Shown: positions 25,001 through 64,000, counted from the first letter of the stretch. The stretch is DNA of 64,000 nt from a bacterium (GCA_040755795.1 JBFLXS010000002.1:5109-69108), one strand, 5' to 3'. The notes: generated by a model not told the origin, from the sequence alone. Numbers and translations are program-made.

Positions 25001-28000
25001 CAATCAGGGTCGTTCACAACTACATTTACCATAGATACTCAACCTTATGGTGTGACTACGGTTAAGGTAACAGGTCTTAGATCTAAGTTTAGTTCTGCTA
25101 ATTTAAACTTCTTCATTACTTCTAATATTATTCTTATTACCCCAACAGAAGGAACGGTTGGCAGAATAATAACCGTTCGAGGTAATGGTTATGGGGCATC
25201 AAAGACAATCCATATAGATTTTGGCACAACACCAACTATTCAATCAGTTTCTACTTATGCAGAAGGGAGTTGGACTACTACCTTTACGATTGATACACAA
25301 CCCTATGGTCAGACGACTATAGTTGCCTATGGAAGTGAACGAGCATCAGGGACATTTACTATCTTGCCCAATATTATTCTTATTACTCCAACAGAAGGAA
25401 CAGTGGGAACAATAATTACAGTTCGAGGTAATGGTTATTCTGCATCAGGGACAATTCGGATAGAATTTGGGACGACACCGACAATTCAATTAACCTCTAC
25501 CTATGCCGAAGGGAGTTGGACGACCACATTTACCATAGATACACAACAATATGGTAAGACGACCATAGTGGCTCAGGGTGATGGGCTTAAGGTAGAAGGG
25601 ACTGTGACTATCTTACCCAACATTATTCTGATTACACCAACAGAAGGAACGGTAGGAACGATAATTACAGTTTGTGGCAATGGTTATTATGCATCTCGAG
25701 CAATTCGCATAGAGTTTGGAACAACACCGACAATCCAGTTGACCTCTACCTATGCCGAAGGTAGTTGGACAACTACATTTACCATCGATACACAACAATA
25801 TGGTCAGACGACCATAGTTGTTCATGGAGATGGACTTAAGGTAGAAGGGACTATAACCATATTGCCAAATATCATTTTAATAACTCCGACAGAAGGAACA
25901 GTAGGGACAATCATTACTATTAGCGGTAATGGTTATGGGGCATCTCGAACAATCCGTATAGAATTTGGGACTACTCCAACAATCCAGTTAACCTCTACTT
26001 ATGCCGAAGGTAGCTGGACTACTACCTTTACCATCGATACCCAGCAATATGGCAAGACGACCATAATGGCTCACGGAGATGGACTTAAGGTAGAAGGGAC
26101 AATAACCATATTGCCCAATATCATTTTGATTACACCAACTGAAGGAACGGTAGGAGCAATAATAACCATAAGCGGTAATGGTTATGTTGCATCTGGAACA
26201 ATCCGCATAAAATTTGGGACTACACCAACCATTCAGTTGACCTCTACTTATGCCGAGGGTAGTTTCACGACTACATTTACCATCGATACGCAACCGTATG
26301 GAATAACAACTATTGTAACTTATGGAGATGGTATATCATTCAAAGGCACAGTGACTATCTTACCAGAGATAATACTAATTAGTCCAAAGGAAGGAACAGT
26401 AGGTAGTATTGTTACCGTTTGTGGTAATGGATATATGGCATCAGAGACAATTCATATTATCTTTGGAACATCACCAACAATTGCTACTACTTCAACGGAT
26501 GCCATTGGGTCATGGACGGTTACCTTTACTGTTGATACCCAGAGTGTTGGGACTACTACCATTACGGCTGTAGATATGGGTAGTGGTAGGAGTGTATCGA
26601 AGTATGAATTTAGAATAGTGCCACAGTTAACTCAAGTATCGCCACCTCAAGGGACAGTTGGGACAATAGTAACACTTCAAGGAGATGGTTACTTAGCTAA
26701 TGAGTTAGTTAAGATAGACTTTGGGACAACATTGACCATAACTACTGTCAGTGCCAGTCAATCAGGGTCGTTCGCAACTACATTTACCATAGATACTCAA
26801 CCTTATGGTGTTACTACGGTTAAGGTAACAGGTCTTACATCTAACTTTAGTTCTGCTAACTTAAACTTCTTCATTACTTCTAATATTATTCTTATTACCC
26901 CAACAGAAGGGACAGTGGGTAGCATAGTAACCGTTCGAGGTAATGGTTATGGGGCATCAAAGACAATTCGTATAGAATTTGGCACAACACCCACTATTCA
27001 ATTAGTTTCTACTTATGCAGAAGGTAGCTGGACAACTACATTTACCATAGATACACAACAATATGGTAAGACAACTATTACTGCTTATGGAAGTGAACAG
27101 GCATCCGGAACATTTACTATCTTGCCCAATATTATTCTGATTACTCCAACAGAAGGAACAGTAGGAACAATAATTACAGTTCGAGGCAATGGTTATGGTG
27201 CATCAAGGACAATTCGGATAGAATTTGGGACGACACCGACAATTCAATTAACCTCTACTTATGCAGAAGGGAGTTGGACGACTACCTTTACCATAGATAC
27301 ACAACAGTATGGTCAGACGACAATAGTTGCTCATCAGGATGACGATGGACTTAAGGTAGAAGGGACAATAACCATATTGCCAAACATCATTCTGATTACG
27401 CCAATTGAAGGAACAGTAGGGACAATTATTACCATAAGTGGTAATGGTTATGTTGCATCTCGAACAATCCGCATAGAGTTGGGGACAACACCGACAATCC
27501 AATTGACCTCTACTTATGCCGAAGGTAGCTGGACAACTACATTTACCATAGATACACAACAATATGGTAAGACGACCATAGTTGCTCATGGAGATGGACT
27601 TAAGGTAGAAGGGACTATAACCATATTGCCGAATATTATTTTAATAACCCCAACAGAAGGAACAGTAGGGACAATCATTACTATTAGCGGCAATGGTTAT
27701 GGTGCATCTCGGACAATCCGTATAGAATTTGGAACCACACCAACAATTCAGTTAACCTCTACTTATGCCGAAGGGAGTTGGACGACGACATTTACTGTGG
27801 ATACTCAACAATATGGTCAGACAACAATTATTGCTCATGGAGATGACCAGGGAATTAAGGCACAAGGGACATTGACAATATTACCGAATATTATTCTCAT
27901 TACCCCAACTAAAGGAACAGTAGGGACAATAATTACTGTTAGAGGTAATGGTTATGGTGCATCGCGGACAATCCGCATAGAATTTGGAACAACTCGCACA

Positions 28001-46000: not shown

Positions 46001-49000
46001 GTTACACCTGATAGAGGTAGTGTGGGGACAATAATTACTTTGAAAGGAAATGGATACAAGGCGAATGAAACAGTTCAAATTGACTTTGGTAATTATTCTA
46101 CTATCACTACCACTTCAAGTGATAACATTGGTTCATTTACTACAACCTTTACTATTGATACCCAGAAATATGGTGTTACAACTATTATTGCCAGAGGATT
46201 AGATTCAAGTTATGCTGTTGATGACCTGTTTATTATACCTAATATCATCACCGTTACGCCTTCAATTGGAACTGTGGGAACGATAATAACCGTAGCCGGT
46301 AATGGTTATGGGGCGTCAGAGACAATAACCATTAGTTTTGGAACACATCCAACTATAACGACTACTTCTACGGATGAAATAGGGTCATTCACGACTACCT
46401 TTACGATAGATACCCAGAGATATGGAACAACAACGATTATTGCTACCAATATGAGTTCGGCAGAAGGCTACTTCTTCATTATTCCAAATATAATTAACAT
46501 TACACCTAAGTCTGGAACTGTGGGCACAATAATAACATTGCAAGGTAATGGATTTGGAGCCTCCAAGACTTTAAGCATAGACTTTGGAACTACATCTACT
46601 ATTCAAATTACCTCTACTTATGCCGAAGGCAGCTTTACCACTACCTGGACAATTGATACTCAACCTTATGGTATCACCACTATTACTACCCATGGAAGTA
46701 AGGATGCATCAGGAACATTTACCATCTTACCTAATATCATTCTGATTACACCGAGTTCAGGGACAGTGGGAACGATAATAACCGTGAGAGGAAATGGCTA
46801 TGCCGCATCGGATACGGTAAGAATAGCATTTGGTATCACTCCAACAATTCAATTAGTTTCTACAGAAATATATGGTAGCTTCACTACCACATTTACTATA
46901 GATACTCAACAATATGGCATAACAACGATTGTTGCTCATGGAGATGCACAAGGCATTTCGGCTCAAGGGACTATTAGTATTCAACCCAATATCATTCTTG
47001 TTACACCAACTTCAGGAACCGTAGGAACGATAATAACCTTAAGAGGAAATGGATATTGGGCATCCGAGACAATCAGGGTAGAATTTGGGACTACGCCAAC
47101 TATACAACTAACCTCTACTTATGCAGAAGGTAGTTTCACCACCACATTTACTATAGATACACAACCTTATGGCATAACAACTATTATTGCTCATGGAAAC
47201 GGGATATTATCCGCAGGCACATTAACCATATTACCTAATACCATTTTGATTACACCGAGTTCAGGGACAGTAGGAACGATAATAACTGTGAGAGGGAATG
47301 GATATGAGGCATCGTCGGTAATCAGGGTAGAATTTGGGACTACACCTACAATACAACTAACTTCTACCTATGCCGAAGGCAGCTTTACCACTACATTTAC
47401 TATTGATACACAACCTTATGGCATAACAACTATTATTGCTCATGGAAACTGGATATTAGCAGAAGGGACATTAACCATATTACCTAATATTATTCTGATT
47501 ACACCAGATTCAGGGACAGTAGGAACGATAGTAACATTAAGAGGAAATGGTTATCGGGCATCCGAGAGAATCAGGGTAGAATTTGGGACTACGCCAACAA
47601 TACAGATAACCTCTACCTACGCAGAGGGAAGTTTCACCACCACATTTACCATAGATACACAACAGGCGGGTATAACAACCATTATTGCCTATGGAGACGG
47701 AATATTAGCCGAAGGAACATTAACTGTGTCATCGAATATTGTTCTGGTTACACCAGATTCTGGAACAGTGGGAACAGTAATAACCGTGAGAGGAAATGGA
47801 TTCAGGGCATCAGATACGATAAGGATAGATTTTGGAGTAACTCGAACAATTCAATTAACTTCTACTTATGCCGAAGGGAGCTTTACTACTACATTTACGA
47901 TTGACACGCAAAACTATGGTTCTACAACAATAACAGCATCAGATTTAGATTCACGGCAGGCGGTTAGATACTTTAAGATACTGCCAGAACTTTGGTTTGT
48001 AACTTCAACCGAAGGAACAGTAGGAACTATAGTAACGATAAGAGGGACAGGATATGCGGCGAATGAGTTAGTTTATATCCACTTTGGAACGACAAAGACG
48101 ATAACAACTACATCTTCAGCCAATGAAGGTAGCTTTACCACTACATTTACTATTGATACACAACCTTATGGCTCTACAACCATAACAGCCTTAGGATTAA
48201 GTTCAGATAAGGCAAGCAACTACTTTAAGATACTATCTTCAGTTTATGAAGTTACACCGATTGAAGGGACGGTAGGAACAATCGTTACCATCAGTGGAAT
48301 GGGATATGGGGCGTTCAAAGACATAACCATACATTTTGGCACAACTAATACCATTACTACTACTTCTACGAATATAGCAGGGTCATTTACTACAACATTT
48401 ACCGTAGATACACAACCTTATGGCACGACAACGATAACGGCATTAGGTTCTGTGGCAATTAACCACTTCAAGATACTGCCAGAGTTGTGGTATGTCAATC
48501 CAGCAGAAGGGACAGTAGGTAAGGTAGTAACAATTCGAGGGACAGGCTATGCGGCGAATGAGTTAGTCTATGTCCACTTTGGCACAACTAATACAATAAC
48601 GACAACATCTGTAGATATAGAGGGTAGCTTCACAACAACATTTACCATAGATACACAACCTTATGGCTCTACAACCATAACAGCGGTAGGTTTGAGTTCC
48701 GGTCAGGCAAGCAATGACTTCAAGATACTGCCAGAATTATGGTATGTCAGTCCAGTAGAAGGGACAGGAGGGAGTATAGTAACAATTCGAGGGACAGGCT
48801 ATGCGGCGAATGAGTTAGTCTATATTCACTTTGGCACGACTAACACGATAACAACTACTTCTTCAGCCAATGAAGGTAGTTTCACCACTACATTTACCAT
48901 AGATACACAACCTTATGGTTCTACAACGATTACAGCATTAGGTTTGAGTTCAGATAAGGCAAGTAATTACTTTAAGATACTATCTTCAGTTTATCAAGTT

Positions 49001-52000
49001 ACGCCGACTGAAGGGACGGTAGGGACAATCGTTACCATAAGTGGAATGGGTTATGGGGCGTTCAAAGACATAACCATACATTTTGGCACGACAAACACCA
49101 TTACTACTACTTTATCGAACATAGCAGGTTCATTTACCACTACCTTTACCATAGATACACAACCTTATGGCACGACAACGATAACCGCATTAGGTTCTGT
49201 GGCAATTAACCACTTCAAGATACTGCCAGAGTTGTGGTATGTCAATCCAGCAGAAGGGACGGTAGGTAAGGTAGTAACGATTCGAGGGACAGGATATACG
49301 GCACAGGAATTAGTCTATATCCACTTTGGCACGACCAACACCATAACGACAACATCTGTAGATGAACAGGGTAGCTTCACAACGACATTTACCATAGATA
49401 CACAACCTTATGGCTCTACAACGATAACAGCGTTAGGCTTAAGTTCAGGTCAAGCGATAAATGACTTCAAGATATTGCCAGAATTATGGTCTGTCAATCC
49501 AGCAGAAGGGACAGTAGGGAAGGTAATAACGATTCGCGGGACAGGATATGCGGCACAGGAAACAGTTTACATTCACTTTGGCACGACAAATACGATAACG
49601 ACAGTATCATCCGATGTCCAGGGTAGCTTCACGACTACATTTACCATAGATACACAATCTTATGGCTCTACAACGATAACAGCCGTAGGTTTGAGTTCAG
49701 ATAAGGCTATTAACTACTTTATGATATTATCTTCAGTTTATGAGGTTACGCCAACTGAAGGGACGGTAGGAACAATAGTTACCATCAGTGGAATGGGATA
49801 TGGGGCGTTTAAAGATATAACCATACATTTTGGCACGACCAATACCATTACCACTACCTCATCGAATATAGCCGGTTCATTTACTACTACCTTTACTATA
49901 GATACACAGCCTTATGGGACGACAACGATAATCGCTATAGGTTCTAAGGCAATTAACTATTTCAAGATACTGCCAGAATTATGGTATGTCAATCCAGCAG
50001 AAGGGACGGTAGGTAAGATAATAACGATTCGAGGGACAGGATATGCAGCGAATGAGTTAGTTTATGTTCATTTTGGCACGACTAATACGATAACGACAAC
50101 ATCTGCAGATGTCCAGGGTAGCTTCACCACTACATTTACCATAGATACACAACCTTATGGTTCTACAACTATAACAGCGTTAGGGTTAAGTTCAGGTCAG
50201 GCGAGCAATGACTTCAAGATACTACCAGAATTATGGTCTGTCAATCCAGCAGAAGGAACAGTAGGGAAGGTAGTAACGATTCGAGGGACAGGATATGCGG
50301 CGAATGAGTTAGTCTATATCCACTTTGGGACGACAAAGACGATAACAACTACATCTGCAGATGGACAGGGTAGCTGGACAACAACATTTACCATAGATAC
50401 ACAATCTTATGGTTCTACAACCATAACAGCGGTAGGATTGAATTCAGGTTCAGCTATCAATTATTTCAAGATACTGGTAGAGTTATATTCCATTACACCG
50501 ACAGAAGGAACAGTAGGGACGATAGTTACTATTAAAGGAACAGGATATAACGCTAATGAAGAGATAAGGATAGATTTTGGAGTTAAATCAACGATAACTA
50601 CGACACAAGCAGATGAAACAGGCAGCTGGACAGCTACATTTACCATAGACACGCAACAGTATGGTAGAACAACTATTAAGGCAACTGGATTAACCTGTCA
50701 GGGAGAAGGAATTAACTACTTCAAGATACTGCCAGAATTATGGTATGTTGAGCCAGCAGAAGGAACAGTAGGAAATATCGTAACGATTCGAGGGACAGGC
50801 TATGCGGCGAATGAATTAGTCTATATCCACTTTGGCACAACTAACACGATAACGACTACATCTGTAGATATACAGGGTAGCTTCACCACTACCTTTACCA
50901 TAGATACGCAACCTTATGGCTCTACAACGATAACAGCGTTAGGGTTGAGTTCAGGACAGGCAAGCAATGACTTCAAGATACTGCGAGAATTATGGTCAGT
51001 GGTGCTTGCGGAAGGGACAGTAGGGACAATCGTAACGATACGAGGCACCGGCTATGCGGCAAATGAGTTGATTTATATCCACTTTGGGACAACAAAGACG
51101 ATTACAACGACATCAGCGGCAATTGAAGGTAGTTTCACAACGACATTTACTATTGATACACAACCGTATGGTTCGACGACAATCACTGCGGTAGGTCTGA
51201 GTTCAGGTAGTGCCATAAATAACTTCAAGATACTGCCAGAGTTATGGTCAGTGGTGCTTGCGGAAGGGACAGTAGGAACAATCGTAACGATCCGAGGCAC
51301 CGGTTATGCGGCGAATGAGTTAGTCTATATCCACTTTGGCACAACTAATACTATAACGACTACATCTTCAGATGGACAGGGTAGCTGGACAACAACCTTT
51401 ACCATAGATACACAATCTTATGGCTCTACAACGATAACAGCGTTAGGCTTGAGTTCAGATAAGGCTATTAACTACTTTATGGTATTATCTTCAGTTTATG
51501 AGGTTACGCCAACTGAAGGGACGGTAGGGACGATAGTTACCATCAGTGGAATGGGATTTGGGGCGTTCAAAGATATAACCATACATTTTGGCACGACTAA
51601 TACGATTACGACCACTGTGTCAAATATAGCAGGTTCATTTACCACAACATTTACCATAGATACACAGCCTTATGGCACGACAACGATAATCGCTTTAGGT
51701 TCGAAGGCAATTAACTACTTTAAGATACTGCCAGAATTGTGGTATGTCAATCCAGCAGAAGGGACAGTAGGAAGTATAGTAACGATACGAGGGACAGGGT
51801 ATGCGGCGAATGAGTTAGTTTATATCCACTTTGGCACAACTAATACCATAACAACTACATCTTCAGATATTCAGGGTAGTTTCACCACAACATTTACAAT
51901 TGATACCCAGAATTATGGCTCTACAACCATAACAGCTTTGGGATTAAGTTCAGGCCAGGCTATTAATGATTATAAGATAATGCCAGCTGTCTGGTATGTC

Positions 52001-55000
52001 ATTCCACCAAAGGGAACAGTTGGCAGCACGGTGATGATAAGAGGGACAGGGTATGAAGCCAATGAGTTAGTTTATATCCACTTTGGGACAACAAAGACGA
52101 TAACAACTACATCTGCAGATATAGAAGGTAGCTGGACAACTACATTTACCATAGATACACAACCTTATGGCAGCACAACGATAATCGCATTAGGGTTAAG
52201 TTCAGACAAGGCGACTAATTACTTTATGATTGTTCCAAGATTATGGTATGTGAGTCCAGTAGAAGGGACAGTAGGGAGTGTAGTAACGATTCGTGGAACA
52301 GGATATGCGGCTTATGAGCCAGTAAATATCTTCTTTGGAACTACGGTATTACCTATTATGCAAACCTTAGTAGATGTTGAAGGAAGTTTCACCACGACAT
52401 TTACTGTTGATACACAACCTTATGGCACTACGACGATAGTGGCTACTGGTGTGAATTCTCTTATTCCAGATGCTAATTATTTCAAGATACTGCCAGAATT
52501 ATGGTATGTCAGTCCAGCAGAAGGGACAGTGGGTACGGTAGTAACGATTCGAGGGACAGGCTATGCGGCGAATGAATTAGTCTATATCCACTTTGGCACG
52601 ACTAATACGATAACGACAACATCTGTAGATGGACAGGGTAGCTTCACAACTACATTTACCATAGATACACAATCTTATGGTAGCACAACCATAACAGTCT
52701 TAGGGTTAAGTTCAGGTCAGGCGAGCAATGACTTCAAGATACTGCCAGAATTATGGTCTGTCAATCCAGCAGAAGGGACAGTAGGTAAGATAGTAACGAT
52801 AAGAGGAACAGGCTATGCGGCGAATGAGTTAGTTTATATCCACTTTGGCACAACTAATACCATAACGACTACATCTTCAGCCATAGAAGGTAGCTTTACC
52901 ACTACATTTACCGTAGATACGCAGTCTTATGGTTCTACAACTATTACCGCCGTAGGGTTGAGTTCAGACAAGGCAACTAATTACTTTATGATATTATCTT
53001 CAGTTTATGAGGTTACACCGACTGAAGGAACGGTAGGGACAATCGTTACCATCAGTGGAATGGGATTTGGGGCGTTCAAAGATATAACCATACATTTTGG
53101 CACGACTAAGACGATTACTACTACTTCTTCGGATATAGCCGGTTCATTCACCACTACCTTTACTATAGATACACAACCTTATGGAACGACAACGATAACC
53201 GCTTTAGGTTCGAAGGCAATTAACTACTTCAAGATACTACCAGAATTATGGTATGTTAATCCAGCCGAAGGGACAGTAGGTCAGGTAGTAATGATTCGGG
53301 GGACAGGCTATGCGGCGAATGAGTTGGTCTATATCCACTTTGGCACAGCAAATACAATCACGACGACCTCAGCCGGAATTGAAGGTAGTTTCACGACGAC
53401 ATTTACTATTGATACACAACCTTATGGCTCTACAACCATAACAGCATTAGGTTTGAGTTCAGATAAGGCAATAAATGACTTCAAGATACTGCCAGAGTTA
53501 TGGTCAGTGGTGCTTGCGGAAGGGACAATAGGAACAATCGTAACAATCCGAGGCACCGGCTATGCGGCGAATGAGTTAATTTATATCCACTTTGGCACAA
53601 CAAATACAATCACGACGACCTCAGCGGCAATTGAAGGTAGTTTCACGACGACATTTACTATTGATACACAACCGTATGGTTCGACGACAATCACTGCGGT
53701 AGGTCTGAGTTCAGGTAGTGCCATAAATAACTTCAAGATACTGCCAGAATTATGGTCAGTGGTGTTAGCCGAAGGGACAGTGGGGACAATCGTAACAATC
53801 CGAGGCACCGGCTATGCGGCGAATGAGTTAATTTACATTCACTTTGGCACAACTAATACAATTACGATGACCTCAGCCGCAATCGAAGGTAGTTTCACGA
53901 CGACATTTACTATTGATACACAACCTTATGGCTCTACAACCATAACAGCATTAGGTTTGAGTTCAGATAAGGCAATAAATGACTTCAAGATACTGCCAGA
54001 GTTATGGTCAGTGGTGCTTGCGGAAGGGACAGTTGGAACAATTGTAACGATTCGAGGCACCGGCTATGCGGCGAATGAGTTAATTTACATTCACTTTGGG
54101 ACAACAAAGACAATCACGACGACCTCAGCCGCAATTGAAGGTAGTTTCACGATGACATTTACCATTGATACACAACCTTATGGTTCGACGACGATAACAT
54201 CAGTTGGCTTGCATTCAGGTAGTGCCATAAATGACTTCAAGATATTGCCGGAATTATGGTCTGTAACACCAAAAGAAGGGACAGTTGGGACAATCGTCAC
54301 AATTCGAGGGACAGGATATGCGGCGAATGAGTTAATTTATATCCACTTTGGGACAACAAATACAATCACGACGACCTCATCCGCAATTGAAGGTAGTTTC
54401 ACGACGACATTTACCATTGATACACAACCTTATGGTTCGACGACGATAACAGCGGTTGGATTGAATTCAGGTAGTGCCATAAATGACTTCAAGATACTAC
54501 CAGAATTATGGTCTGTCAGTCCAACAGAAGGGACAGTAGGTAAGATAGTAACAATTCGAGGAACAGGCTATGCGGCGAATGAGTTAATTTACATTCACTT
54601 TGGCACAACTAATACCATAACGACAACATCTGCAGATGGACAGGGTAGCTGGACTACAACCTTTACTATAGATACACAATCTTGTGGCTCTACAATTATT
54701 ACAGCCGTAGGGTTGAGTTCAGGTTCAGCTATCAATTACTTCAAGATAATGGCAGAATTATATTCAGTTACACCGACAGAAGGAACGGTAGGAACTATTG
54801 TTACGATTAGAGGAACAGGGTATTTAGCCAGTGAGCAAATAAGGATAGACTTTGGAGTTAAATCAACGATAACGACAACACAAGCAGATGGAATAGGTAG
54901 TTGGACAGTTACCTTTACCATAGATACCCAGGCCTATGGTAACACTACCATTAAATCTACTGGATTAATATCTCAGGGAGAAGGGATTAACTACTTCAAG

Positions 55001-58000
55001 ATACTACCAGAGTTATGGTCAGTGGTGCTTGCTGAAGGGACAGTAGGAACAATTGTTACAGTCCGAGGCACAGGCTATGCGGCGAATGAGTTGGTCTATA
55101 TCCACTTTGGCACAACTAACACGATAACGACAACATCTGCAGATATAGAAGGTAGCTTCACCACAACATTTACTATTGATACACAACCTTATGGTTCTAC
55201 AACCATAACAGCGTTAGGTTTGAGTTCAGACAAGGCAATAAATGACTTCAAGATACTGCCAGAGTTATGGTCAGTGGTGCTTGCTGAAGGGACAGTAGGA
55301 ACAATTGTTACAATCCGAGGCACAGGCTATGCGGCACAGGAATTAATTTACATCCACTTTGGGACAACAAATACAATCACGACGACCTCAGTCGCAATTG
55401 AAGGTAGTTTCACAACAACATTTACTATTGATACACAACCTTATGGTTCAACGACAATCACTGCGGTAGGTCTGAGTTCAGGTAATGCGATAAATAACTT
55501 CAAGATACTGCCAGAATTATGGTCAGTGGTGTTAGCCGAAGGGACAGTAGGGACAGTAGTGACGATACGAGGCACAGGTTATGCGGCGAATGAATTAATT
55601 TACATTCACTTTGGGACAACAAATACAATTACGACGACCTCAGCCGCAATTGAAGGTAGTTTCACAACGACATTTACTATTGATACACAGCCTTATGGTT
55701 CGACGACGATAACAGCAGTCGGCTTGAATTCAGGTAGTGCGATAAATTACTTCAAGATACTGCCAGAGTTATGGTCAGTGGTGTTAGCCGAAGGGACAGT
55801 GGGGACAGTAGTGACGATACGAGGCACCGGTTATGCGGCGAATGAGTTAATTTACATTCACTTTGGCACAACTAACACGATAACAACAACATCTGCAGAT
55901 GGACAGGGTAGCTGGACAACTACATTTACCATAGATACTCAACGCTATGGTTCAACAACCATTACTGCCGTAGGTTTGAGTTCTTCATCTGCTATTAATT
56001 ACTACAAGATAACTCCTGATTTATGGTATGTAAGTCCAACGCAAGGAACGGTTGGAACAATTGTTACCATTAGAGGCACGGGTTACTCAGTTGGTGATGT
56101 CCGAATAGACTTTGGAACGACAAGAACTATCACCACTACACAGGCGGTTGCAGAAGGTAGTTTCACCACTACATTTACTGTGAATATTCAACCTGTAGGC
56201 AAGACGACTATTGCCGCAGTGGGCATTAATGGCGAAGGAAATATTAACTTCTTTACCATCACAGGTGGAATTAGAATATCACCTACCACTGGGACAGTAG
56301 GAATAGTAGTAACGGTGTTTGGTAATGGATATGCTTCAACAGAGCAGGTGAGGGTTGATTTTGGCACCACTCCTACCCTGTCAATAGTTACAGCGGAGCC
56401 AGTAGGGACATTTATTGCTATGTTCACTGTTACCACTCAACCTTATGGCACGACAACGGTTACGGCTACTGGACCAATAACAGGGTCTGCGATAGACTTC
56501 TTTGTCATTACACCTGAATTATTTAGTGTTATACCAAATGCAGGGACAGTAGGTAGCATAGTAATAATTCGAGGCACAGGTTATGCGGCGAATGAGAGAG
56601 TTTATATCCACTTTGGGACAACTAATACGATAACTACTACATCTTCAGACATAGAAGGAAGCTGGACAACAACATTTACTATAGATACACAACCTTACGG
56701 TTCTACAACCATAATAGCGTTAGGCTTGAGTTCAGGTTCAGCTATTAACTATTGCAAGATACTGCCAGAGTTATGGTCAGTAGTGCTTGCGGAAGGGACA
56801 GTAGGGACAATCGTCACAATCCGAGGCACAGGCTATACGGCGAATGAGTTAGTTTATATTCACTTTGGCACAACTAATACGATAACCACTACATCTGCAG
56901 ATATAGAGGGTAGCTGGACAACTACATTTACTATAGATACTCAACCTTATGGTTCTACAACGATAACCGCCATAGGGTTAAGTTCGGGTTCAGCCATAAA
57001 TGACTTCAAGATACTGCCTGAATTATGGTTCGTCAATCCAGCAGAAGGAACAGTAGGCAAGATAGTGATGATAAGAGGAACAGGCTATGCGGCGAATGAG
57101 GCAGTTTATATCCACTTTGGCACAACAAAGACGATAACAATGGTATCTTCAGTTATTGAAGGTAGTTTCACAACAACATTTACCATAGATACACAACCTT
57201 ATGGCACAACGACCATTGTTGCCTCAGGATTGAATTCAGGAGAGGCGATTAATTACTTCAGAGTCCTGCCGGAGGTATTCAGTGTTACTCCGAAAGAAGG
57301 CACAGTGGGAACAATAGTTACTATTCGTGGGACAGGATATGGTGCAAATAAGATAATTAATGTTCACTTTGGAACAACAAATACTATTACTACGGCGAGT
57401 TCAGATATAATTGGTTCATTTACCGCAACATTTACTGTGGATACGCAACCTTATGGCACAACAACTATTGTTGCTACAGGTTGTTCGGCAATTAACTACT
57501 TCAAGATATTACCAGATGTTTGCTATGTTACGCCTACATCAGGGACTGTGGGAAGTATTGTGACGGTTCGTGGAACAGGCTATGCGGCTTCAGAAGAGGT
57601 CTATGTCCATTTTGGCACAACAAAGACGATTACAACTACGGTTTCTGCTCAAGAAGGTAGCTTCACCACGACATTTACTGTGGATACACAAGTTTATGGC
57701 ACAACAACAATTATTGCGGTAGGATTAGGTTCAGGAGAGGCGATTAATTATTATAGGATAACTCCTGATTTGTGGTATGTCAATCCACAACAAGGCACAG
57801 TAGGAACAATTGTTACGATTAAAGGCACAGGTTATACCCCTGGTGAGGTGCGAATAGACTTTGGCACAACTCAAACTATTACTACTACTCAGGCAGATAA
57901 TACAGGTAGTTTGACGACGACATTTACCATAGATACGCAACCATTAGGTATAACAACTATTGCGGCAGCTGGTGCTAATGCTGAAAGAAATATTAACTTC

Positions 58001-61000
58001 TTCACGATTACTGGTGGTATTAGAATATCGCCAACTACGGGTTCAGTAGGAACGATAGTAACCGTGTTTGGTAATGGTTATGCGGCAACAGAACAAGTCC
58101 GTGTTGATTTTGGGACAACACCAACATTAGCCATAACAACAACTGATAATATAGGTTCATTTACGGTAACCTTTACCGTAACGACACAACCTTATGGAAC
58201 AACAACTATCATTGTTACCGGAGCAGAGGCAGGTTCTGTCTGCATTACCTTCTTCATCACGCCAGATGTATTTATGGTTAGTCCAGATACAGGAACAGTG
58301 GGAACAGTAATTACTATTCGTGGGACAGGTTATGCTGGGAGAGAAGATGTTTATATCCACTTTGGCACAACGCAGACGATTACCATTACTACTTCAGCTA
58401 TTGAAGGCAGTTTCACGACGACATTTACCATTGATACACAGCCGTATGGTAGCACGACCATTACGGGATTAGGCTTAAATTCCAGTTCAGCTATTAATTA
58501 CTTTAAGATTATACCGCAGATTATTCAGGTTACACCAGATACAGGAACAGTTGGAACAATAATTACGATTCGTGGGACAGGATATGGAAATGGCGAAGAT
58601 GTCTTCATCCACTTCGGCACGACACAAACGATTACCAGGACTATTACCGATATAGAAGGCAGCTGGACTACAACATTTACTATTGATACACAACCGTATG
58701 GGACGACGACAATTACTTCTGTGGGAGAGACTACACCGCAGGCGATTAATTACTTTAAGATTACACCAGAAATAATTAGGGTTACGCCAACTCAAGGCAC
58801 AGTGGGAACAATAGTAACAATTCGTGGGACAGGTTATGCCGGGACAGAAGAAGTCTATATCCACTTTGGCACAACGAAGACGATTACGACTACGGTTTCA
58901 GATATCGCTGGTAGCTGGACAACAACATTTACGATTGACCCACAGGCTTATGGCTCAACAACCATTACTGCGCTTGGATTACGGTCAGATTCAAATATTG
59001 CTTACTTCAAAGTGTTAGGCGAATTATACTTAGTTTCACCGAAGGAAGGGACCGTGGGGACGATAGTAACCATTAGTGGAACAGGATATCAATCCAGTGA
59101 GACTGTCCAGATAAGTTTTGGCAACAAGACGACGATAACTACAGGTCATGTAATAGACACAGGCGTCTTTATCCTTACATTTACAATTGATACGCAGGTT
59201 TATGGGTCAACAACAATTATTGCCACTGGTCTCTCATCAGCCATAGAAGGTATTAATTACTTTAAGATAATACCAGATGTAATTATGGTGAGTCCATCAA
59301 TTGGGACTGTGGGGACAATCGTTACCATTCGTGGGACTGGTTATGCCGGATTAGAAGAGTTGTATGTCCATTTTGGCACGACAAAGACAATTACTACAAC
59401 GACTTCAGATATGGAAGGTAGCTGGACAACAACATTTACTATTGATACACAACCGTATGGTTCAACAACAATTACCGTGTTAGGATTTGGTTCTGGAGAG
59501 GATATTTCCTACTTTAAGATAACACCTCAAATTTGGGATGTTACACCGACTTCAGCGACAGTAGGAACAATAATTACCATTCGTGGCACAGGTTATGCCG
59601 GGACAGAGGAGATTTATATCCACTTTGGCACGAATAAGACGATTACTACTACTGTTTCTGCCATAGAAGGAAGTTGCACAACAACATTTACCATTGATAC
59701 ACAACCTTATGGCACGACAACGATTCTCGCAGGAGGCTTGAAGTCTGATGAGGCAATTAATTACCTGAAGATAACTCCACAATTAGTTTCAGTAACACCA
59801 ACAGAGGGAACAATAGGAACACTAATAACTATTTGTGGAACAGGTTATGCCAGCAGTGAGACAGTTTATATCCACTTTGGGATACGCAATACTATTACCA
59901 CTACTGTTTCAGGCATCGAAGGAAGTGTGACAACTACCTTTACCATTGATACTCAACCTTATGGAACGACAACTGTGGTAGCATTAGGCTTGAAGTCCGC
60001 AGTTGCCATTAATTACTTTAAGATATTACCGGCATTGTTTATGGTCAGTCCAACAGAAGGGACTGTGGGCACAATAGTAACAATAAGAGGTAATGGTTAT
60101 ATTGGGACAGAAGAGATTTATATCCACTTTGGCACAACAAGGACGATTGCCACGGTTATCTCAGAGCTACAGGGAAGCTTTACCACAACATTTACAGTGG
60201 ATACACAACCTTATGGGTCAACAACTATCACAGGCGTTGGTAGTTGTGGTGAGTCAATTAACTACTTTAAGATTACACCAGAGTTGTGGTTTGTAACTCC
60301 AACAAAAGGAACAATAGGAACAATTCTAACTATTCGTGGAACTGGTTATACGCCAGGTGAGGTGCGAATAGACTTTGGCACGACAGAATCTATCACCCTT
60401 ACTCAAGCAGAAATAGAGGGAAGTTTCACCACGACATTTACCGTAAATACACAAATATTAGGTAAGACAACAATTAGAGCCACAGGTATTAATCAGGAAA
60501 CCAATATTAACTATTTTGTGATTATTGGTGGAGTTGAGGTATCGCCGACATCTGGCACGGTTGGGTCAATAGTGACGGTATGTGGAACAGGATATGCGGC
60601 AAGTGAAGAGATAAGGATTAATTTTGGCACAACACCTTCAATTACGAAAGTTATCGCTACTGAAGCGGGAACATTTACCGTAACCTTTACCATTGATACA
60701 CAACCTTATGGCACCACCACCGTTAGAACGATAAGTTCAGATACAGGTTCAGCCACAACTTACTTTACCATTCTACCCGACCTGTGGCAAGTTAGTCCAT
60801 CAGAAGGCACAGTAGGAACAATAGTTACTATTCGTGGGACAGGTTATGCCTATCAAGAAACAGTTTCGATACATTTTGGAACAACATTTACCATTACCAC
60901 AGCTCAAGGTTCTAAACAAGGTAGCTGGACGACGAAATTCACAGTAGATATGCAACCTTGTGGTAGCACCACGATTACTGCCGTAGGTGATACATCAGGC

Positions 61001-64000
61001 ACGGCTATTAACTATTTTGTCATAAATCCAGAAATATACTCTGTAACTCCAACTCAAGGGACAGTTGGAACAATAGTTACCATTAAAGGTAGTGGTTACA
61101 GGCTAAGTGATGACATACAGATAGATTTCGGCACTACATTAACTATTATGGTTGCTTCTTCTAATGATGCAGGGACATTTACCGCTACCTTTACTATAGA
61201 TACTCAAGCCTACGGAACTACAACCATAACCGCCAAAGGTTCAGCAGTGGGAATAGCGGTGAATTACTTCAAGATAACTCCAGATGTATTTTTTGTTTCA
61301 CCAACAGAGGGCACCGTTGGGACAATAATTACTATTCGTGGTACAGGTTATGCCGGTGGTGAGACAGTAGATATTCATTTTGGCAGGGCTAAGACCATCA
61401 CCACAGCGTTAGTAGATGCACAGGGCACTTTCACTACTACCTTTACCATAGATACACAACCTTATGGAACAACTACAATTACGGGAGTTGGTCCCACCTC
61501 TTCGCAGGCAATTAATTACTTTAAGATATTATCAGAGATAGTTTCGGTTACTCCAACGGAAGGAACGGTAGGAACAATAGTTACTATCTGCGGAACTGGT
61601 TATAGAGATACAAAGAGAGTTTATATCCACTTTGGCACGACTAATACTATTACAACAACTACTTCAGATTATGAAGGTTCATTTACTACTACCTTTACCA
61701 TTGATACTCAACCTTATGGCACAACAACGATAATGGCAGTAGGGTCTCCACAGGCAATCAACTACTTCAAGATATTACCGGATGTTATCTTTGTCAGTCC
61801 AACATCAGGCACGGTTGGAACTATAGTTACTGTTCGTGGAACGGGTTATGCTGGCACAGAGGAAGTTTATATCCACTTTGGCACTACCAATACCATAACT
61901 ACTACCGTATCCGCTATACAGGGTAGTTGGACAACGACATTTACCATAGATACCCAATCTTATGGAACAACTACAATAATAGCCGTAGGATTAAAGTCAG
62001 GAGAGGATTATAATTACTTCTTTATAAATTCAATGACTTATCTAACTCCTTTACAGGGAACAGTAGGTCAGTTGGTAACCATAAGGGGTGAAGGTTATAA
62101 TGATGGAGAGACTATAGCTATACACTTTGGAGAGATTTTGACTATATGTACTGCACTGGTGGCTCAAGAAGGTTCATTTACGGCTATATTTACTGTTGAT
62201 ACTCAGATTTTTGGGACAAAGACAATAACCGTAGTAAGTGAGATTGAAACGAGAACTCATTTGTTTAAGATAAGAGGTGGAGTGATAGTATCGCCCAGAA
62301 GTGGAATAGTGGCGACACTTGTTACCCTGTATGGAACAGGATATGGAGCCAGTGAGCCAATCATCATAGGTTTTGGTGGTAATCCAACCATATCTTGTGC
62401 AACAACCTCTGATAATGGGACATTCTCAACGCAATTTATGGCTGATGTTCAGGTACCTGGTCCGGTGGTAATTACTGCCAGTGGTTTGATAACCGGTGAA
62501 GTAGCATCTACTACCTTTACGCTGGTCAGAATATTCTTAAATCCAAATGTTGGCTATGGACAAAAAGATGCAATTACTCTAATCTCAGGTAAAGGATTTA
62601 TGGAGGGAGCAACCGTAACTGCTAATTCTATTAAATTCAATGGTGCATTTACCGCACAACATCCCCCAATAACTATTCAACCAGGAGGTAATTTACCAAC
62701 AACTACTTTGACATTACCAGCGATGCCGTGGGGAACTTATACGGTTCATATGATAGTTTCAGGAGAGGAATTTGTATTTGCAGATAGTTATAGAGTTATA
62801 CCGCGGATTATAATGAATCCAGGTGCGGGTAGTGGTCAGACGGGTAATACAAGTACTATAACAGGTTCAGGATTCTATGGGACGACAGGTGGAACGACTA
62901 TACTAATGAATAGTATTAAGGTAGGTGGCAATCCGACTGAACATCCAGAAGTGGTTGTATCTGATGTGGGAACATTCTCAGTTACAGTTGCTCTGTCACA
63001 ACTTAACCAAGCAGGGGGTTATGCGGCAGATATTGTCCAGACTAAGGAAAATATAGGTTCATGGACATATAGATTTGAAAATGTCTATTATCGAACTTCA
63101 CCACCTCAGTTACGATGGACAGGAGAGTCTGGTTATACACAGGATGGACTTAATCCAGAAGAGGGTCTAAATACTACAATTTATACTTACCGTATAAGAT
63201 ATTACGATTTTGATAATGATGACCCATTACCTGGCTATCCAAAGGTGATTATTTATAAAGGTACTAATGTTTATGCTTCATTGACTATGACAAAGATAGA
63301 TAATTATCTACCGAGGTCAGCTCCACGATATGAAGTTCAAACAACCCTTCCAGATGGAATGTACTCCTATTATATTGTGGCGTATGATAAATGGGGAGCG
63401 CCAGCCAATGGTGTCTCAGGAGTATGGCGTGAGGGACCAAGAGTAGGACAATTCCCAACACTTAGATGGGTAGGCGCACCTGACTATATCAATACGGGTG
63501 TATCTCCAAAAGTTGGCTCTGAGGGAACGCTATTTAATTATCGGGTAGTGTATCGAGATTCAAGTAATCGGCCACCAGTATTTGGGACAAATAGCCCAAT
63601 AGTGATTATAGAAAAAGATGGATTACCCTATGCCACTTATACTCTGGGTACTATTTCCTTGCTGGGAGGAACTGCAACTCCTTATCGAGATGGTGTGATT
63701 TATGGTACTGAGACTTCTCTTCTGGTAAGAGGTTCATATACACATAGATTTAAAGTACAAATAGCCATAGGAACGGATACATTTATAGAAGCACAGGGAA
63801 CGCCAACATTAATCAATTCAGGACCGACAGTGGTAACCCTTCCATATCTTAGTTGGTTAGGAGCACTAGGATATACGGATGATGGCGTAGAACCCGATAT
63901 TGGACAGATAGGAGATATCTTTGAATTTAAGGTGAAATATACAGGTTCTACTGCACCTGAATTGATACGACTATATCTTATGAGTCAAAATGGAACAATT
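2..64000 (+). CDS. Internal fragment of a giant repetitive protein gene, partial at both ends, at least 21,333 codons in this window. It encodes tandem IPT/TIG-like Ig-fold domains (extender array) followed by a distinct distal domain module. Probably an extracellular or cell-surface fibrillar adhesin-like protein.
   Basis: Phase-2 reading frame on the + strand hand-translated with no stop codon. Checked in register at 68, 9983, 22022, 36485, 50051, 59942, 63842 and 63998 (all congruent to 2 mod 3). Every unit-length difference is a multiple of 3. The ORF track lists no phase-2 + strand ORF, as expected for a stop-free frame without an in-window terminus. Variation between units is mainly codon third positions and conservative substitutions. 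Neither start nor stop codon is in the window. Confidence 0.9.
22598..24601 (+). repeat. Higher-order repeat copy A (8 units) of the 22.1-28.1 kb block
   Basis: Begins with the PEIILISPKEG and QLTQVSPPQG marker units and ends with the ...GISFKGTVT unit. The next copy starts at 24602. Confidence 0.75.
24602..26359 (+). repeat. Higher-order repeat copy B (7 units)
   Basis: Same ordered succession of unit variants as copy A with one unit fewer. Nucleotide identity to A and C is visibly above 90%. Confidence 0.75.
26360..28140 (+). repeat. Higher-order repeat copy C (7 units). The last unit decays into the diverged units that follow.
   Basis: Same marker pair at 26360-26893. Carries a 3-aa in-frame insertion (HQDDDGLKVEG) in one unit. 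The array diverges after about 28140 (NIILITPTAGTVGRTITIAGNGFGATEKIQIDFG). Confidence 0.7.
28141..35340 (+). repeat. About 29 diverged IPT/TIG-like units, including atypical units with loop insertions (28.7-29.9 kb) and a degenerate unit at 30.84-31.0 kb
   Basis: Hand translation. Same motif skeleton, low inter-unit identity. Confidence 0.8.
35341..56000 (+). repeat. About 82 near-identical 252 bp / 84 aa units. Consensus ELWSVVLAEGTVGTIVTIRGTGYAANELVYIHFGTT(K/N)TITTTSAAIEGS(F/W)TTTFTIDTQPYGSTTITAVGL(N/S)SG(S/E)AINDFKILP. Includes embedded variant units and sub-HORs.
   Basis: Adjacent units, e.g. 38413-38664 vs 38665-38916, differ at only a handful of nucleotides. Antisense artefact ORFs (MPRIVTIVPTVPSASTTDHNSG...) recur with exactly 252-bp or 504-bp spacing (38251 and 38503; 39007 and 39259; 40239-end and 40743-end). 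Confidence 0.9.
56001..62040 (+). repeat. About 24 moderately diverged units related to the 35-56 kb family (..IRGTGYAG(T/L)EE(V/I)YIHFGTT(K/N)TITTTVS(D/A)IEGSWTTTFTIDTQPYG..), punctuated by 'ITPDLWYV(S/N)P..G.VRIDFG' and 'ITGGIRISPTTG..VFGNGYA.TEQVRVDFG' marker units
   Basis: Hand translation. Marker pairs at about 56010/56270, 57760/58020 and 60290/60520. Confidence 0.8.
62041..62527 (+). other. Two terminal, degenerate IPT/TIG-like units closing the extender array (INSMTYLTPLQGTVGQLVTIRGEGYNDGETIAIHFG... and RGGVIVSPRSGIVATLVTLYGTGYGASEPIIIGFGGNPTIS...)
   Basis: The motif skeleton is retained but strongly diverged. They are the last units carrying G-x-G-Y-x-x-x-E and F-T-V-D-T-Q-like motifs. 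Confidence 0.7.
62528..63091 (+). other. Two domains with a more classical IPT/TIG signature (RIFLNPNVGYGQKDAITLISGKGFMEGATVTANSIKFNG...YTVHMIVSGEEF and RIIMNPGAGSGQTGNTSTITGSGFYGTTGGTTILMNSIKVGGNPTEHPEVVVSDVGTFSVTV...)
   Basis: Pattern P-x-x-G-x-x-x-G-x-T-x-I-T-(L/I)-x-G-x-G-F ... (V/I)-K-(F/V)-(N/G)-G ... V-x-V, as in IPT/TIG/plexin-type Ig-like domains. Sequence family differs from the upstream array. Confidence 0.5.
63092..64000 (+). repeat. At least 3 copies (third truncated by the window) of a different repeat of about 120-130 aa: P-x-L-(R/S)-W-x-G-x-x-x-Y-x-x-x-G-(V/L)-x-P-x-x-G-x-x-x-T-x-(F/Y)-x-(Y/F)-(R/K)-(I/V)-x-Y-x-D...P ... (V/I)-x-(I/L)-x-x-x-G-x-x-Y-A. Unnamed beta-rich repeat, a candidate distal functional module.
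   Basis: Copy 1 at 63092-63451 (PPQLRWTGESGYTQDGLNPEEGLNTTIYTYRIRYYDFDNDDPLPGYPKVIIYKGTNVYASLTMT...). Copy 2 at 63452-63838 (FPTLRWVGAPDYINTGVSPKVGSEGTLFNYRVVYRDSSNRPPVFGTNSPIVIIEKDGLPYATYTLG...). Copy 3 from 63839 (LPYLSWLGALGYTDDGVEPDIGQIGDIFEFKVKYTGSTAPELIRLYL...). Confidence 0.6.

What the first reader, a model, noticed from the sequence alone, without database searches (positions are those of the whole stretch)
62041..64000. End of the extender array and switch to a different domain module (candidate distal or ligand-binding region)
After about 248 units the TIG-like array degenerates over two units (62.04-62.53 kb). The protein then continues in frame into two classical-looking IPT domains and a new repeat family that runs off the window. 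In giant RTX-type adhesins the long extender of Ig-like repeats is followed, toward the C-terminus, by ligand-binding domains and then RTX repeats with a T1SS signal. The order seen here (extender then a different module at the 3' side) matches that organisation. The transition is the most informative part of the window for function.
Basis: partly seen in the sequence, partly recalled or inferred. Interest (0 to 1): 0.7.

Follow-up and report, generated by a model that had tools for sequence, protein, structure and literature searches.

The report
Cell-proximal base of a giant surface fibre
The last 2 kb of the window is where a 246-unit Ig-like repeat array in one enormous surface protein gives way to a different repeat, and relatives suggest this is the stalk next to the cell-surface anchor, not the far ligand-binding tip.

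Summary
The whole window is one open frame of 21,333 aa. It contains 246 complete ~84-aa TIG-like units plus one partial unit. The last two units (nt 62042-62539) are divergent but are predicted to fold normally. Two further TIG-related domains follow (62540-63100). After them come 2.5 copies of an unrelated ~118-aa beta-rich repeat, here called "NR" (63101-64000), which no Pfam or NCBIfam model matched.

The RTX/T1SS "distal ligand-binding module" reading is not supported. The same junction (extender, two TIG domains, NR) is collinear at 31-35% identity in four other lineages. In the three lineages that reach the gene end, 10-13 NR units follow. Next comes a ~100-aa T9SS type-A-like C-terminal sorting domain, then the stop codon, then immediately a PorV/PorQ-family gene. 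No RTX repeats occur in the window or in these relatives.

Across 150 NR-containing proteins, the NR array usually sits directly against the C-terminal anchor, either the sorting domain or a transmembrane helix. The region is therefore most likely the cell-proximal stalk of a roughly micron-long fibre, with the functional head at the unseen N-terminus.

The protein's own C-terminus lies outside the window, so this is inference from homologues. Closest named relatives are fragmentary Candidatus Desantisbacteria proteins.

The parts
2..64000 (+). Single uninterrupted open reading frame (21,333 codons), an internal fragment of a giant gene that is open at both ends
   Evidence: Six-frame stop count: frame 2 of the + strand has 0 stops, while every other frame has 855-2595
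71..62041 (+). 244 TIG-like extender units of ~84 aa. Unit 244, the last canonical one, is nt 61793-62041
   Evidence: hmmsearch with a unit HMM. 36 of 120 units hit Pfam TIG PF01833 at E<=1, best 4.7e-6. The unit profile hits CGTase domain D (1cyg)
62042..62287 (+). Extender unit 245: divergent, but predicted to fold as an intact beta sandwich
   Evidence: 77 bits against ~120 for its neighbours. Pfam TIG E=0.009. AF2 pLDDT >90
62288..62539 (+). Extender unit 246: the most divergent of the terminal units, still predicted to fold as an intact beta sandwich
   Evidence: 44 bits. Best identity to any other unit is 47%, rank 7 of 246. AF2 pLDDT 97-98
62540..62803 (+). Adaptor domain IPT-A (aa 20847-20934), a TIG-related beta sandwich
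   Evidence: Pfam TIG E=0.008, 16.5 bits, below cutoff. hhalign to the extender gives 95%. The aligned domain in relative P0006 hits TIG at 35.4 bits, above the 20.9 cutoff
62804..63100 (+). Adaptor domain IPT-B (aa 20935-21033), a more diverged TIG-related domain
   Evidence: No Pfam hit. hhalign to IPT-A gives 97% and to the extender 74%. It is collinear in P0006, P0024 and P0087
63101..63451 (+). NR repeat 1 (aa 21034-21150). It keeps the family's acidic YxDxDNDxP motif
   Evidence: 107 bits to the NR family HMM. 906 representative proteins match the terminal module in a search of 1.84 billion, mostly over the NR region
63452..63838 (+). NR repeat 2 (aa 21151-21279). It has insertions and has lost the acidic motif
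   Evidence: 82 bits to the NR HMM; alignment
63839..64000 (+). NR repeat 3 (aa 21280-21333), only the first ~43 profile positions, cut off by the window end
   Evidence: 38 bits, HMM positions 2-43

Best explanation
The region is the C-proximal transition of a giant secreted cell-surface fibre. A >20,000-aa rod of TIG-like Ig domains ends in two divergent units and two further-diverged TIG-type adaptor domains. The chain then switches to a tandem array of an unrelated, uncatalogued ~118-aa beta-sandwich repeat (NR).

By homology, about 7-11 more NR units (roughly 3-4 kb) should lie just beyond the window. After them I expect a ~100-aa T9SS type-A-like C-terminal sorting domain, the stop codon, and a PorV/PorQ-family outer-membrane gene.

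The proposed mechanism is as follows. The protein is exported across the inner membrane by Sec. The C-terminal domain is recognised by a T9SS-like or PorV-dependent pathway. The C-terminal end is then left attached at the outer membrane. On this model the NR array is the cell-proximal stalk, and the TIG rod projects the unseen N-terminal head away from the cell. With 246 units at about 4 nm each, the rod would be on the order of 1 micrometre long.

Shown here: the domain anatomy in the window, the homology of the junction, and the architecture and gene neighbourhood of the relatives.

Inferred: that this protein has the same C-terminus, the direction of anchoring, and the stalk role of NR.
For: Junction homology:
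- IPT-A, IPT-B, NR1, NR2 and NR3 align collinearly at 31-36% identity with P0006/P0151, P0024/L006, P0087 and P0163.

Architecture of relatives, mapped with my own HMMs:
- P0151 is EXTx6, IPTA, IPTB, NRx10, CTD.
- L006 is EXTx40, IPTA, IPTB, NRx10, CTD.
- P0163 is EXTx6, IPTA, IPTB, NRx13, CTD.
- P0151 and P0163 are only 32% identical at the junction, yet share the full architecture and gene order. The arrangement is therefore ancestral to a group as divergent as the window.

C-terminal domain:
- TIGR04183 Por_Secre_tail scores 23.1 and 27.3 bits against a 23-bit cutoff in P0006 and P0001. Both also match the C-terminal-domain parts of the PorU and PorZ models.
- Pfam Por_Secre_tail scores 27.7 against 27 in P0001.
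- NCBI names cluster-mate P0152 'T9SS type A sorting domain-containing protein'.

Downstream gene:
- It matches the PorV/PorQ family model NF033709 at 136.8 bits against a 90-bit cutoff.
- A PorV-like gene is present in L001, L002 and L006, and in L004 at 58% identity.

NR position relative to the anchor:
- In 31 of 66 CTD-terminated proteins the last NR lies within 30 aa of the CTD, and in 53 of 66 within 150 aa.
- In 11 of 15 proteins with a C-terminal TM helix, the NR array ends 5-21 aa before the helix.

N-terminal heads in relatives:
- P0160, P0191, P0202 and P0219 have a signal peptide, then a right-handed beta-helix, then the EXT array.

Extender fold:
- The AF2 model has pLDDT 94.8, with Ig-like beta sandwiches arranged as beads on a string.
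Against: - The C-terminus, the signal peptide and the flanking genes of this protein are all outside the window. The source contig was not found in any collection searched.
- Identity to the relatives is only 31-35%.
- In two more distant relatives (P0051, P0086) a block of 3-4 NR units sits between extender arrays, so the array can resume after NR.
- The C-terminal-domain and PorV matches are at or just around the curated thresholds for some models. Examples are Pfam PorV at 20.5 against 27 and Por_Secre_tail at 26.9 against 27 in L006.
- PorV/PorQ belongs to the wider FadL-like barrel family.
- Whether these genomes carry a complete T9SS (PorK/L/M/N, Sov, PorU) was not tested. T9SS is classically confined to the FCB group (my own knowledge), whereas the named relatives are Candidatus Desantisbacteria.
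- The structure model of the NR region is poor (pLDDT 54).
Confidence: 0.6

Rival explanations
1. Internal spacer. The 2 TIG adaptors plus a few NR units are an interruption, and the TIG-like extender array resumes further downstream. On this reading the window end is not near the C-terminus.
For: P0051 (4177 aa) has EXTx2, NRx4, then EXT arrays of at least 24 units. P0086 has EXT, NRx3, EXT. These show that NR blocks can be internal in this superfamily.
Against: Those two proteins lack the IPT-A/IPT-B adaptor pair. Every relative that has the same IPT-A, IPT-B, NR junction as the window and also reaches its gene end terminates after 10-13 NR units and a C-terminal sorting domain. These are P0151/P0006, L006 and P0163.
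Confidence: 0.15
2. NR repeats are themselves ligand-binding modules, for example glycan-binding or CBM-like. On this reading the region is a binding module, whichever end is anchored.
For: - The NR profile has a single solved relative: residues 821-916 of the Paenibacillus GH9 xanthanase PspXan9 (6fhj_A, E=1.8e-9).
- That segment lies next to, and partly inside, the stretch that PMC10049358 cloned as the xanthan-binding 'PspCBM84'. Their forward primer encodes DGRVYT, which I map to residue 876.
- The conserved acidic YTDADNDAP loop could bind Ca2+ (inference).
Against: - No binding has been shown for the NR-like part of 6FHJ, and the domain boundaries of CBM84 could not be checked because Moroz et al. 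2018 is not held.
- NR occurs as 2-49 tandem copies placed directly against membrane anchors. That is the pattern of a spacer or stalk.
- Window NR2 and NR3 have lost the acidic motif.
Confidence: 0.15
3. RTX-type T1SS adhesin (LapA/MpIBP-like). The extender is followed by distal ligand-binding domains, RTX repeats and a T1SS signal beyond the window.
For: - The order 'long Ig-like extender, then a different module on the 3' side' matches RTX adhesins.
Against: - There are zero GGxGxDxUx motifs in the 21,333 aa of the window, and none in P0151, P0006, P0163, P0024, P0009, P0002 or P0087.
- Relatives end in a T9SS-type sorting domain, and the next gene is PorV-like rather than T1SS.
- Fold similarity to Ig-like extenders is generic. 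Invasin, complement MG domains and S-layer proteins score the same.
Confidence: 0.05
4. Assembly artefact. The switch at ~62.5 kb is a chimeric join between a collapsed or expanded repeat array and an unrelated gene.
For: - The array contains near-identical units, up to 100% amino-acid identity. Such arrays are hard to assemble.
- Public relatives are almost all fragments that fill whole short contigs.
Against: - The frame is continuous.
- The same junction, in the same domain order, is found in four independent lineages from different samples.
- Divergence rises gradually across units 245 and 246 and then IPT-A and IPT-B, rather than changing abruptly.
Confidence: 0.03

Closest known systems
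T9SS type-A CTD cargo adhesins and surface proteins of the FCB group, such as Flavobacterium SprB-type giant adhesins and Porphyromonas CTD proteins
   Same: - Relatives with the same junction end in a ~100-aa Ig-like C-terminal domain that matches TIGR04183/PF18962 and the C-terminal-domain parts of the PorU and PorZ models.
- A PorV/PorQ-family gene lies immediately downstream in those relatives.
- The body of the protein is a very long repetitive beta-sandwich chain.
   Different: - No sorting domain is visible in this window.
- The protein is more than three times longer than SprB, which is about 6,500 aa (my own knowledge).
- The named relatives are Candidatus Desantisbacteria, not FCB.
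- SprB uses a type-B sorting domain (my own knowledge).
- The presence of the T9SS core machinery was not tested.
RTX giant adhesins secreted by T1SS (LapA, MpIBP, SiiE)
   Same: - A rod of roughly a hundred or more tandem Ig-like extender domains, followed on the 3' side by a different module.
- Structural similarity of the extender unit to 6xi3 and 4p99.
- A probable role as a long surface fibre.
   Different: - No RTX repeats occur in the window or in the relatives.
- Relatives carry a T9SS-type sorting domain and a PorV-like neighbour instead of T1SS genes.
- The implied polarity is opposite: the C-terminus is cell-attached, whereas in RTX adhesins the N-terminus is retained (my own knowledge of LapA and MpIBP).
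Fragmentary 'IPT/TIG domain-containing protein, partial' entries of Candidatus Desantisbacteria and unclassified groundwater MAGs (MBU1262907.1, MBU1599396.1; COZ71_*, COZ13_*, HY792_*, AAB296_*)
   Same: - The same extender unit family, typically 13-39 units filling an entire short contig.
- The same sequence of IPT-A, IPT-B and NR at the junction (P0087, P0151, P0006).
   Different: - Identity to the window at the junction is only 31-35%.
- Those entries are short fragments, whereas the window shows 246 units in one frame.
Penultimate beta module of Paenibacillus GH9 xanthanase PspXan9 (PDB 6FHJ/6FHN, residues 821-916), adjacent to CBM84
   Same: It is the only solved structure with sequence-detectable homology to the NR repeat (profile E=1.8e-9). 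It shares the F-x-Y-x-x-x-Y-T-D-A-N-N-x-A-P and Y-S-D-G-x-x-Y-T-Y motifs.
   Different: - It is a single copy in a secreted enzyme, not a tandem array next to a membrane anchor.
- Its own function is not established in the papers I could read.
Giant proteins of Omnitrophota (West-Roberts et al. 2023, bioRxiv 10.1101/2023.11.21.568195; bioRxiv 10.64898/2026.06.07.730766)
   Same: Bacterial genes of tens of kilobases recovered from groundwater metagenomes, including tandem-repeat scaffold classes.
   Different: - Those papers do not mention TIG/IPT, T9SS or Desantisbacteria.
- The architectures they describe are multi-enzyme, TM-rich, or WD/HEAT/TSP3 repeats, not a TIG rod with an NR stalk.

Membership tests
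RTX adhesin / T1SS substrate | Tandem GGxGxDxUx nonapeptide (RTX) repeats near the C-terminus | tested here: not met
   There are 0 matches in the 21,333 aa of the window (0.4 expected by chance), and 0 in the relatives P0151, P0006, P0163, P0024, P0009, P0002 and P0087. The protein's own C-terminus lies outside the window, so absence there is inferred from homologues.
RTX adhesin / T1SS substrate | Adjacent T1SS genes (ABC transporter, membrane fusion protein, TolC-like) | not testable with these tools
   The window is entirely intragenic, and the source contig was not found. In relatives the next gene is PorV/PorQ-like, not T1SS.
T9SS type-A CTD cargo | C-terminal ~80-100 aa sorting domain (TIGR04183 / PF18962) | not testable with these tools
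   It would lie beyond the window end. In relatives with the same junction it is present: P0006 scores 23.1 against a 23-bit cutoff and P0001 scores 27.3. Pfam gives 27.7 against 27 in P0001 and 26.9 against 27 in L006.
T9SS type-A CTD cargo | T9SS components in the genome (PorV shuttle, PorU sortase, PorK/L/M/N, Sov) | not testable with these tools
   Only a PorV/PorQ-family gene next to the relatives' genes could be seen (NF033709 at 136.8 bits against a 90-bit cutoff). The core machinery was not searched, and the genome of the window is unknown.
T9SS type-A CTD cargo | N-terminal Sec signal peptide | not testable with these tools
   The N-terminus is outside the window. Relatives P0160, P0191, P0197 and P0219 start with signal-peptide-like sequences.
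IPT/TIG domain (Pfam PF01833) | Match to the PF01833 profile at or above the gathering score (20.9 bits) | tested here: inconclusive
   - 36 of 120 extender units hit TIG at E<=1, best 4.7e-6.
- Unit 245 scores 16.4 bits, IPT-A scores 16.5 bits, and IPT-B and unit 246 have no hit.
- The IPT-A equivalent in P0006 scores 35.4 bits.
- Overall the units are distant TIG relatives, not 'classical' ones.
NR repeat family (uncatalogued; defined here) | Match to an HMM built from 613 repeat units taken from the 150 best-matching proteins (W-x-G...Y-x-x-D-G-x-x-P...F-x-Y-x-V-x-Y-x-D...Y-x-Y-x-F-x-A-x-D) | tested here: met
   The three window copies score 107, 82 and 38 bits, the last one truncated. No Pfam or NCBIfam family reaches threshold on them.
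CBM84 (xanthan-binding module) | Homology to the CBM84 module of PspXan9 and demonstrated glycan binding | tested here: inconclusive
   The NR profile matches 6fhj_A residues 821-916. This overlaps only the first ~40 residues of the construct used as PspCBM84 in PMC10049358. The true CBM84 boundaries could not be checked.

The most novel reading that the evidence does not exclude
The window is the base of a surface fibre of more than 21,000 aa in a Desantisbacteria-like bacterium outside the FCB group. The fibre is exported and tethered through a T9SS-like C-terminal domain and PorV pathway. If so, it would be by far the largest substrate of that pathway, and evidence for T9SS-type sorting outside its classical phyla.

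In addition, NR would be an undescribed and widespread 'membrane-proximal stalk' domain. It would be shared by bacterial proteins anchored through a sorting domain and by proteins anchored through a C-terminal TM helix, which look archaeal.
Probability: 0.35. Interest if true: 0.6.

Novelty: new variant of a known kind. Interest (0 to 1): 0.45.

Why it matters
It reverses the expected polarity of the fibre. If the 3' module is the cell-proximal stalk, the functional head has to be sought at the unseen 5' end. Relatives there carry a beta-helix head.

It gives a concrete, cheaply testable prediction for the next ~4-5 kb of the source assembly: more NR units, a T9SS-type sorting domain, then a porV-like gene.

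It also defines an uncatalogued repeat domain, with about 900 representative clusters, that marks the anchor-proximal end of many large surface proteins. It shows too that the many 'partial IPT/TIG' fragments in Desantisbacteria MAGs are pieces of giant genes of this type.

Giant bacterial proteins and T9SS cargo are themselves known, so the advance is incremental.

Tried and rejected
**Finding the source contig or downstream sequence**
- The search for related loci with the terminal 487 aa found nothing in genome contigs or in metagenome contigs.
- The same search with alignment A1 in genome contigs also found nothing.
- Only the second metagenome scan gave a relative, L006.

**Word-indexed protein search**
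- The window module returned nothing.
- Alignment A1 returned only P0087.
- The index is swamped by low-complexity words. The exhaustive HMMER search was what worked.

**Family and sequence scans**
- Pfam and NCBIfam scans of 1000-aa stretches gave only chance hits such as NqrA, Rol_Rep_N and a holin.
- TIG became visible only when units were scanned singly.
- phmmer of the module against PDB sequences gave nothing.

**Structure work**
- AF2 of the terminal 487 aa with a 4-row alignment gave pLDDT 54.
- The Foldseek search with that model returned only generic multi-Ig chains at TM<=0.22. I disregard it.
- Foldseek with the extender model was likewise generic.

**Other checks**
- Self-BLAST of the terminal module did not detect the NR repeats. 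They needed a profile.
- There are no Rfam matches in nt 60000-64000 on either strand.
- There are no LPXTG, PEP-CTERM-like or GlyGly-CTERM-like motifs in the last 487 aa.
- The reverse-strand open stretch at 63563-64000 (146 codons) was treated as a shadow of the strongly supported + strand frame.
- Moroz et al. 2018, which gives the 6FHJ domain boundaries, is not held.


Full report
**1. What is in the sequence**

The whole 64-kb window is one open frame. It lies on the + strand in frame 2 (nt 2-64000), gives 21,333 codons with no stop, and is open at both ends. All other frames carry 855-2595 stops.

A profile built from eight units finds 246 complete repeat units of 81-89 aa from aa 24 to aa 20846, plus a partial unit at the window start.

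The last canonical unit ends at nt 62041. The next two units (nt 62042-62287 and 62288-62539) score 77 and 44 bits, against about 120 bits for their neighbours. Tandem Repeats Finder loses the DNA repeat at nt 61979.

Two qualifications apply:
- Equally divergent units occur elsewhere in the array. By best identity to any other unit, the last two rank 61st and 7th lowest of 246.
- AlphaFold2, run with an 82-row alignment of unit triplets taken from the window, models unit 244 and both 'degenerate' units as intact seven-strand beta sandwiches. Mean pLDDT is 94.8, with blocks of 95-98 over the last two units.

The two units have diverged. They have not decayed.

**2. The units are distant TIG relatives**

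Pfam finds nothing when 1000-aa stretches are scanned. Scanned one unit at a time, 36 of 120 units hit PF01833 (TIG), with a best E-value of 4.7e-6.

The unit profile's best PDB sequence hit is residues 501-540 of cyclodextrin glucanotransferase 1cyg. From my own knowledge this is its domain D, an IPT/TIG-type domain.

- invasin

This supports 'works like an adhesin extender'. It is not specific to any one family.

**3. The transition is graded, then abrupt**

Two roughly 90-100 aa domains follow unit 246: IPT-A (nt 62540-62803) and IPT-B (nt 62804-63100).

| Domain | Direct Pfam TIG test | hhalign to extender |
|---|---|---|
| IPT-A | E=0.008, 16.5 bits, below the 20.9-bit cutoff | 95% |
| IPT-B | no hit | 74% |

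IPT-A and IPT-B match each other at 97%. The IPT-A equivalent in relative P0006 hits TIG at 35.4 bits.

From nt 63101 the protein changes to a different repeat, which I call NR:
- aa 21034-21150, 107 bits against a family HMM
- aa 21151-21279, 82 bits
- aa 21280-21333, 38 bits, truncated by the window end

NR is unrelated to the TIG domains (hhalign <2%). No Pfam or NCBIfam model reaches threshold on it.

**4. NR is a large uncatalogued family**

An exhaustive HMMER search of 1.84 billion representative proteins with the terminal 487 aa gave 906 hits at E<=1e-3 and 118 at E<=1e-30. Almost all hits fall on query residues ~187-487, which is the NR region.

In the 150 best hits NR always occurs in tandem, with 2-49 copies.

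The only solved relative is residues 821-916 of the Paenibacillus GH9 xanthanase PspXan9 (6fhj_A, profile E=1.8e-9). That segment abuts the xanthan-binding CBM84. One paper's 'PspCBM84' construct starts inside it, at DGRVYT (PMC10049358). The original structure paper is not held. I therefore treat a glycan-binding role as a lead only.

**5. What relatives show downstream**

The window's IPT-A, IPT-B, NR1, NR2 and NR3 align collinearly at 31-36% identity with four other lineages:
- P0151/P0006 (NCBI MBU1262907.1 and MBU1599396.1)
- P0024/L006
- P0087 (Candidatus Desantisbacteria)
- P0163 (JGI)

Domain maps made with my own HMMs:

| Relative | Architecture |
|---|---|
| P0151 | EXTx6, IPTA, IPTB, NRx10, CTD |
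| L006 | EXTx40, IPTA, IPTB, NRx10, CTD, stop |
| P0163 | EXTx6, IPTA, IPTB, NRx13, CTD |

The C-terminal domain (CTD) meets NCBIfam TIGR04183, the T9SS type A sorting domain. It scores 23.1 and 27.3 bits against a 23-bit cutoff, and it also matches the CTD portions of the PorU and PorZ models. NCBI names cluster-mate P0152 accordingly.

In all three lineages whose gene end is seen, the next gene is PorV-like:
- The gene is 12 nt downstream in L001 and L002, and 168 nt downstream in L006.
- NF033709 'PorV/PorQ family' scores 136.8 bits against a 90-bit cutoff for the L001 copy.
- The truncated neighbour in L004 is 58% identical to the L001 copy.

P0151 and P0163 are as far from each other (32%) as either is from the window. 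Even so, they share the complete architecture and gene order. The simplest inference is that the window's protein has the same architecture. That predicts roughly 950-1,360 more residues before the stop codon.

**6. RTX model tested**

No GGxGxDxUx motif occurs anywhere in the 21,333 aa of the window, nor in the relatives that reach their C-terminus. The neighbouring gene in relatives is PorV-like, not T1SS. The RTX/T1SS reading is therefore not supported.

**7. Which end is which**

In T9SS type-A cargo the C-terminal domain is removed and the new C-terminus is tethered to the outer membrane. This comes from established knowledge of Porphyromonas and Flavobacterium, and was not tested here.

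Independently of that, NR arrays sit against the C-terminal anchor across the family:
- In 31 of 66 CTD-terminated proteins the last NR is within 30 aa of the CTD, and in 53 of 66 within 150 aa.
- In 11 of 15 proteins with a C-terminal TM helix and an acidic tail, the NR array ends 5-21 aa before the helix.

Relatives that keep an N-terminus show a signal peptide, a right-handed beta-helix head, and then the EXT array (P0160, P0191, P0202, P0219).

The best model is therefore head (N-terminal, distal), TIG rod, two adaptors, NR stalk, then the C-terminal sorting domain (proximal). With 246 units at about 4 nm each, the rod would be on the order of a micrometre long. That length is my estimate.

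**8. Caveats**

- The protein's own ends and flanking genes are not in the window, and the source contig is absent from the collections searched.
- In P0051 and P0086, blocks of 3-4 NR units lie between extender arrays, without the IPT-A/IPT-B pair. An internal-spacer outcome therefore remains possible; I put it at about 0.15.
- Some Pfam scores for the C-terminal domain and for PorV are just under threshold.
- A complete T9SS was not demonstrated. The named relatives are Candidatus Desantisbacteria, which lies outside the phyla where T9SS is classically described.
- The AF2 model of the terminal module is poor (pLDDT 54). The fold search run with it is uninformative.

**9. Context and novelty**

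Most public relatives of the extender are 'partial' proteins that fill entire 3-10 kb contigs of Desantisbacteria and unclassified groundwater MAGs. They are unassembled pieces of giant genes of this kind.

Giant bacterial proteins are now reported in large numbers, especially in Omnitrophota. The two papers I read describe other architectures and do not mention TIG, T9SS or Desantisbacteria.

I rate the finding as a new variant of a known kind: a giant Ig-repeat surface fibre, probably sorted through a T9SS-type C-terminal domain. It carries an uncatalogued anchor-proximal repeat domain. Interest is moderate.

Noticed in passing
window 35393-44983 (units 139-176) and 22121-28153 (units 87-110): There is a higher-order repeat of 7 units (~1.77 kb). 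Mean unit identity at offset 7 is 0.92, against ~0.84 at other offsets, and 0.81 against ~0.65 in the second block. One pair of units (142 and 149) is 100% identical in protein. This suggests recent expansion or homogenisation by 7-unit blocks. It coincides with a GC rise to 0.44 at 36-44 kb, against ~0.40 elsewhere.
   Followed up: partly
L003 (GCA_016208205.1 JACQYP010000058.1, Candidatus Desantisbacteria), 1-15961: A 23.5-kb contig is filled by two consecutive gene calls of 5,854 aa and 1,987 aa, separated by 20 nt. The second call starts inside an extender unit. This is probably one giant extender gene of more than 7,800 aa, split by a frameshift or stop.
   Followed up: no
L001 6865-7382 and L002 6113-6630: A small toxin-antitoxin pair (Unstab_antitox / ParE_toxin) sits directly after the PorV-like gene that follows the giant gene in two related MAGs.
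   Followed up: no
P0051 (MEW6606183.1, 4177 aa) and P0086 (MEW6609717.1): In these relatives, blocks of 3-4 NR units are inserted between extender arrays without the IPT-A/IPT-B adaptors. P0051 also has a CTD-like domain at residues 316-414, far from its C-terminus. This is a different modular arrangement of the same parts.
   Followed up: partly
window 63101-64000 (NR1-NR3): The family's conserved acidic loop (consensus Y-T-D-A-D-N-D-A-P, possibly a Ca2+ site) is kept in NR1 as YYDFDNDDP. It is lost in NR2 (YRDSSNRPP) and NR3 (YTGSTAPE).
   Followed up: no
Among the 150 best NR-containing hits (for example P0025, P0026, P0028, P0031, P0032): A second class of NR proteins has exactly 7 NR units, followed by a TM helix and a long acidic, Glu/Pro-rich cytoplasmic tail. 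These look like archaeal type-I surface proteins. The NR domain therefore appears to be shared across domains of life, or transferred between them.
   Followed up: partly
window 63563-64000, minus strand: An open stretch of 146 codons on the reverse strand runs off the window end. It is most likely a shadow of the coding + strand.
   Followed up: no
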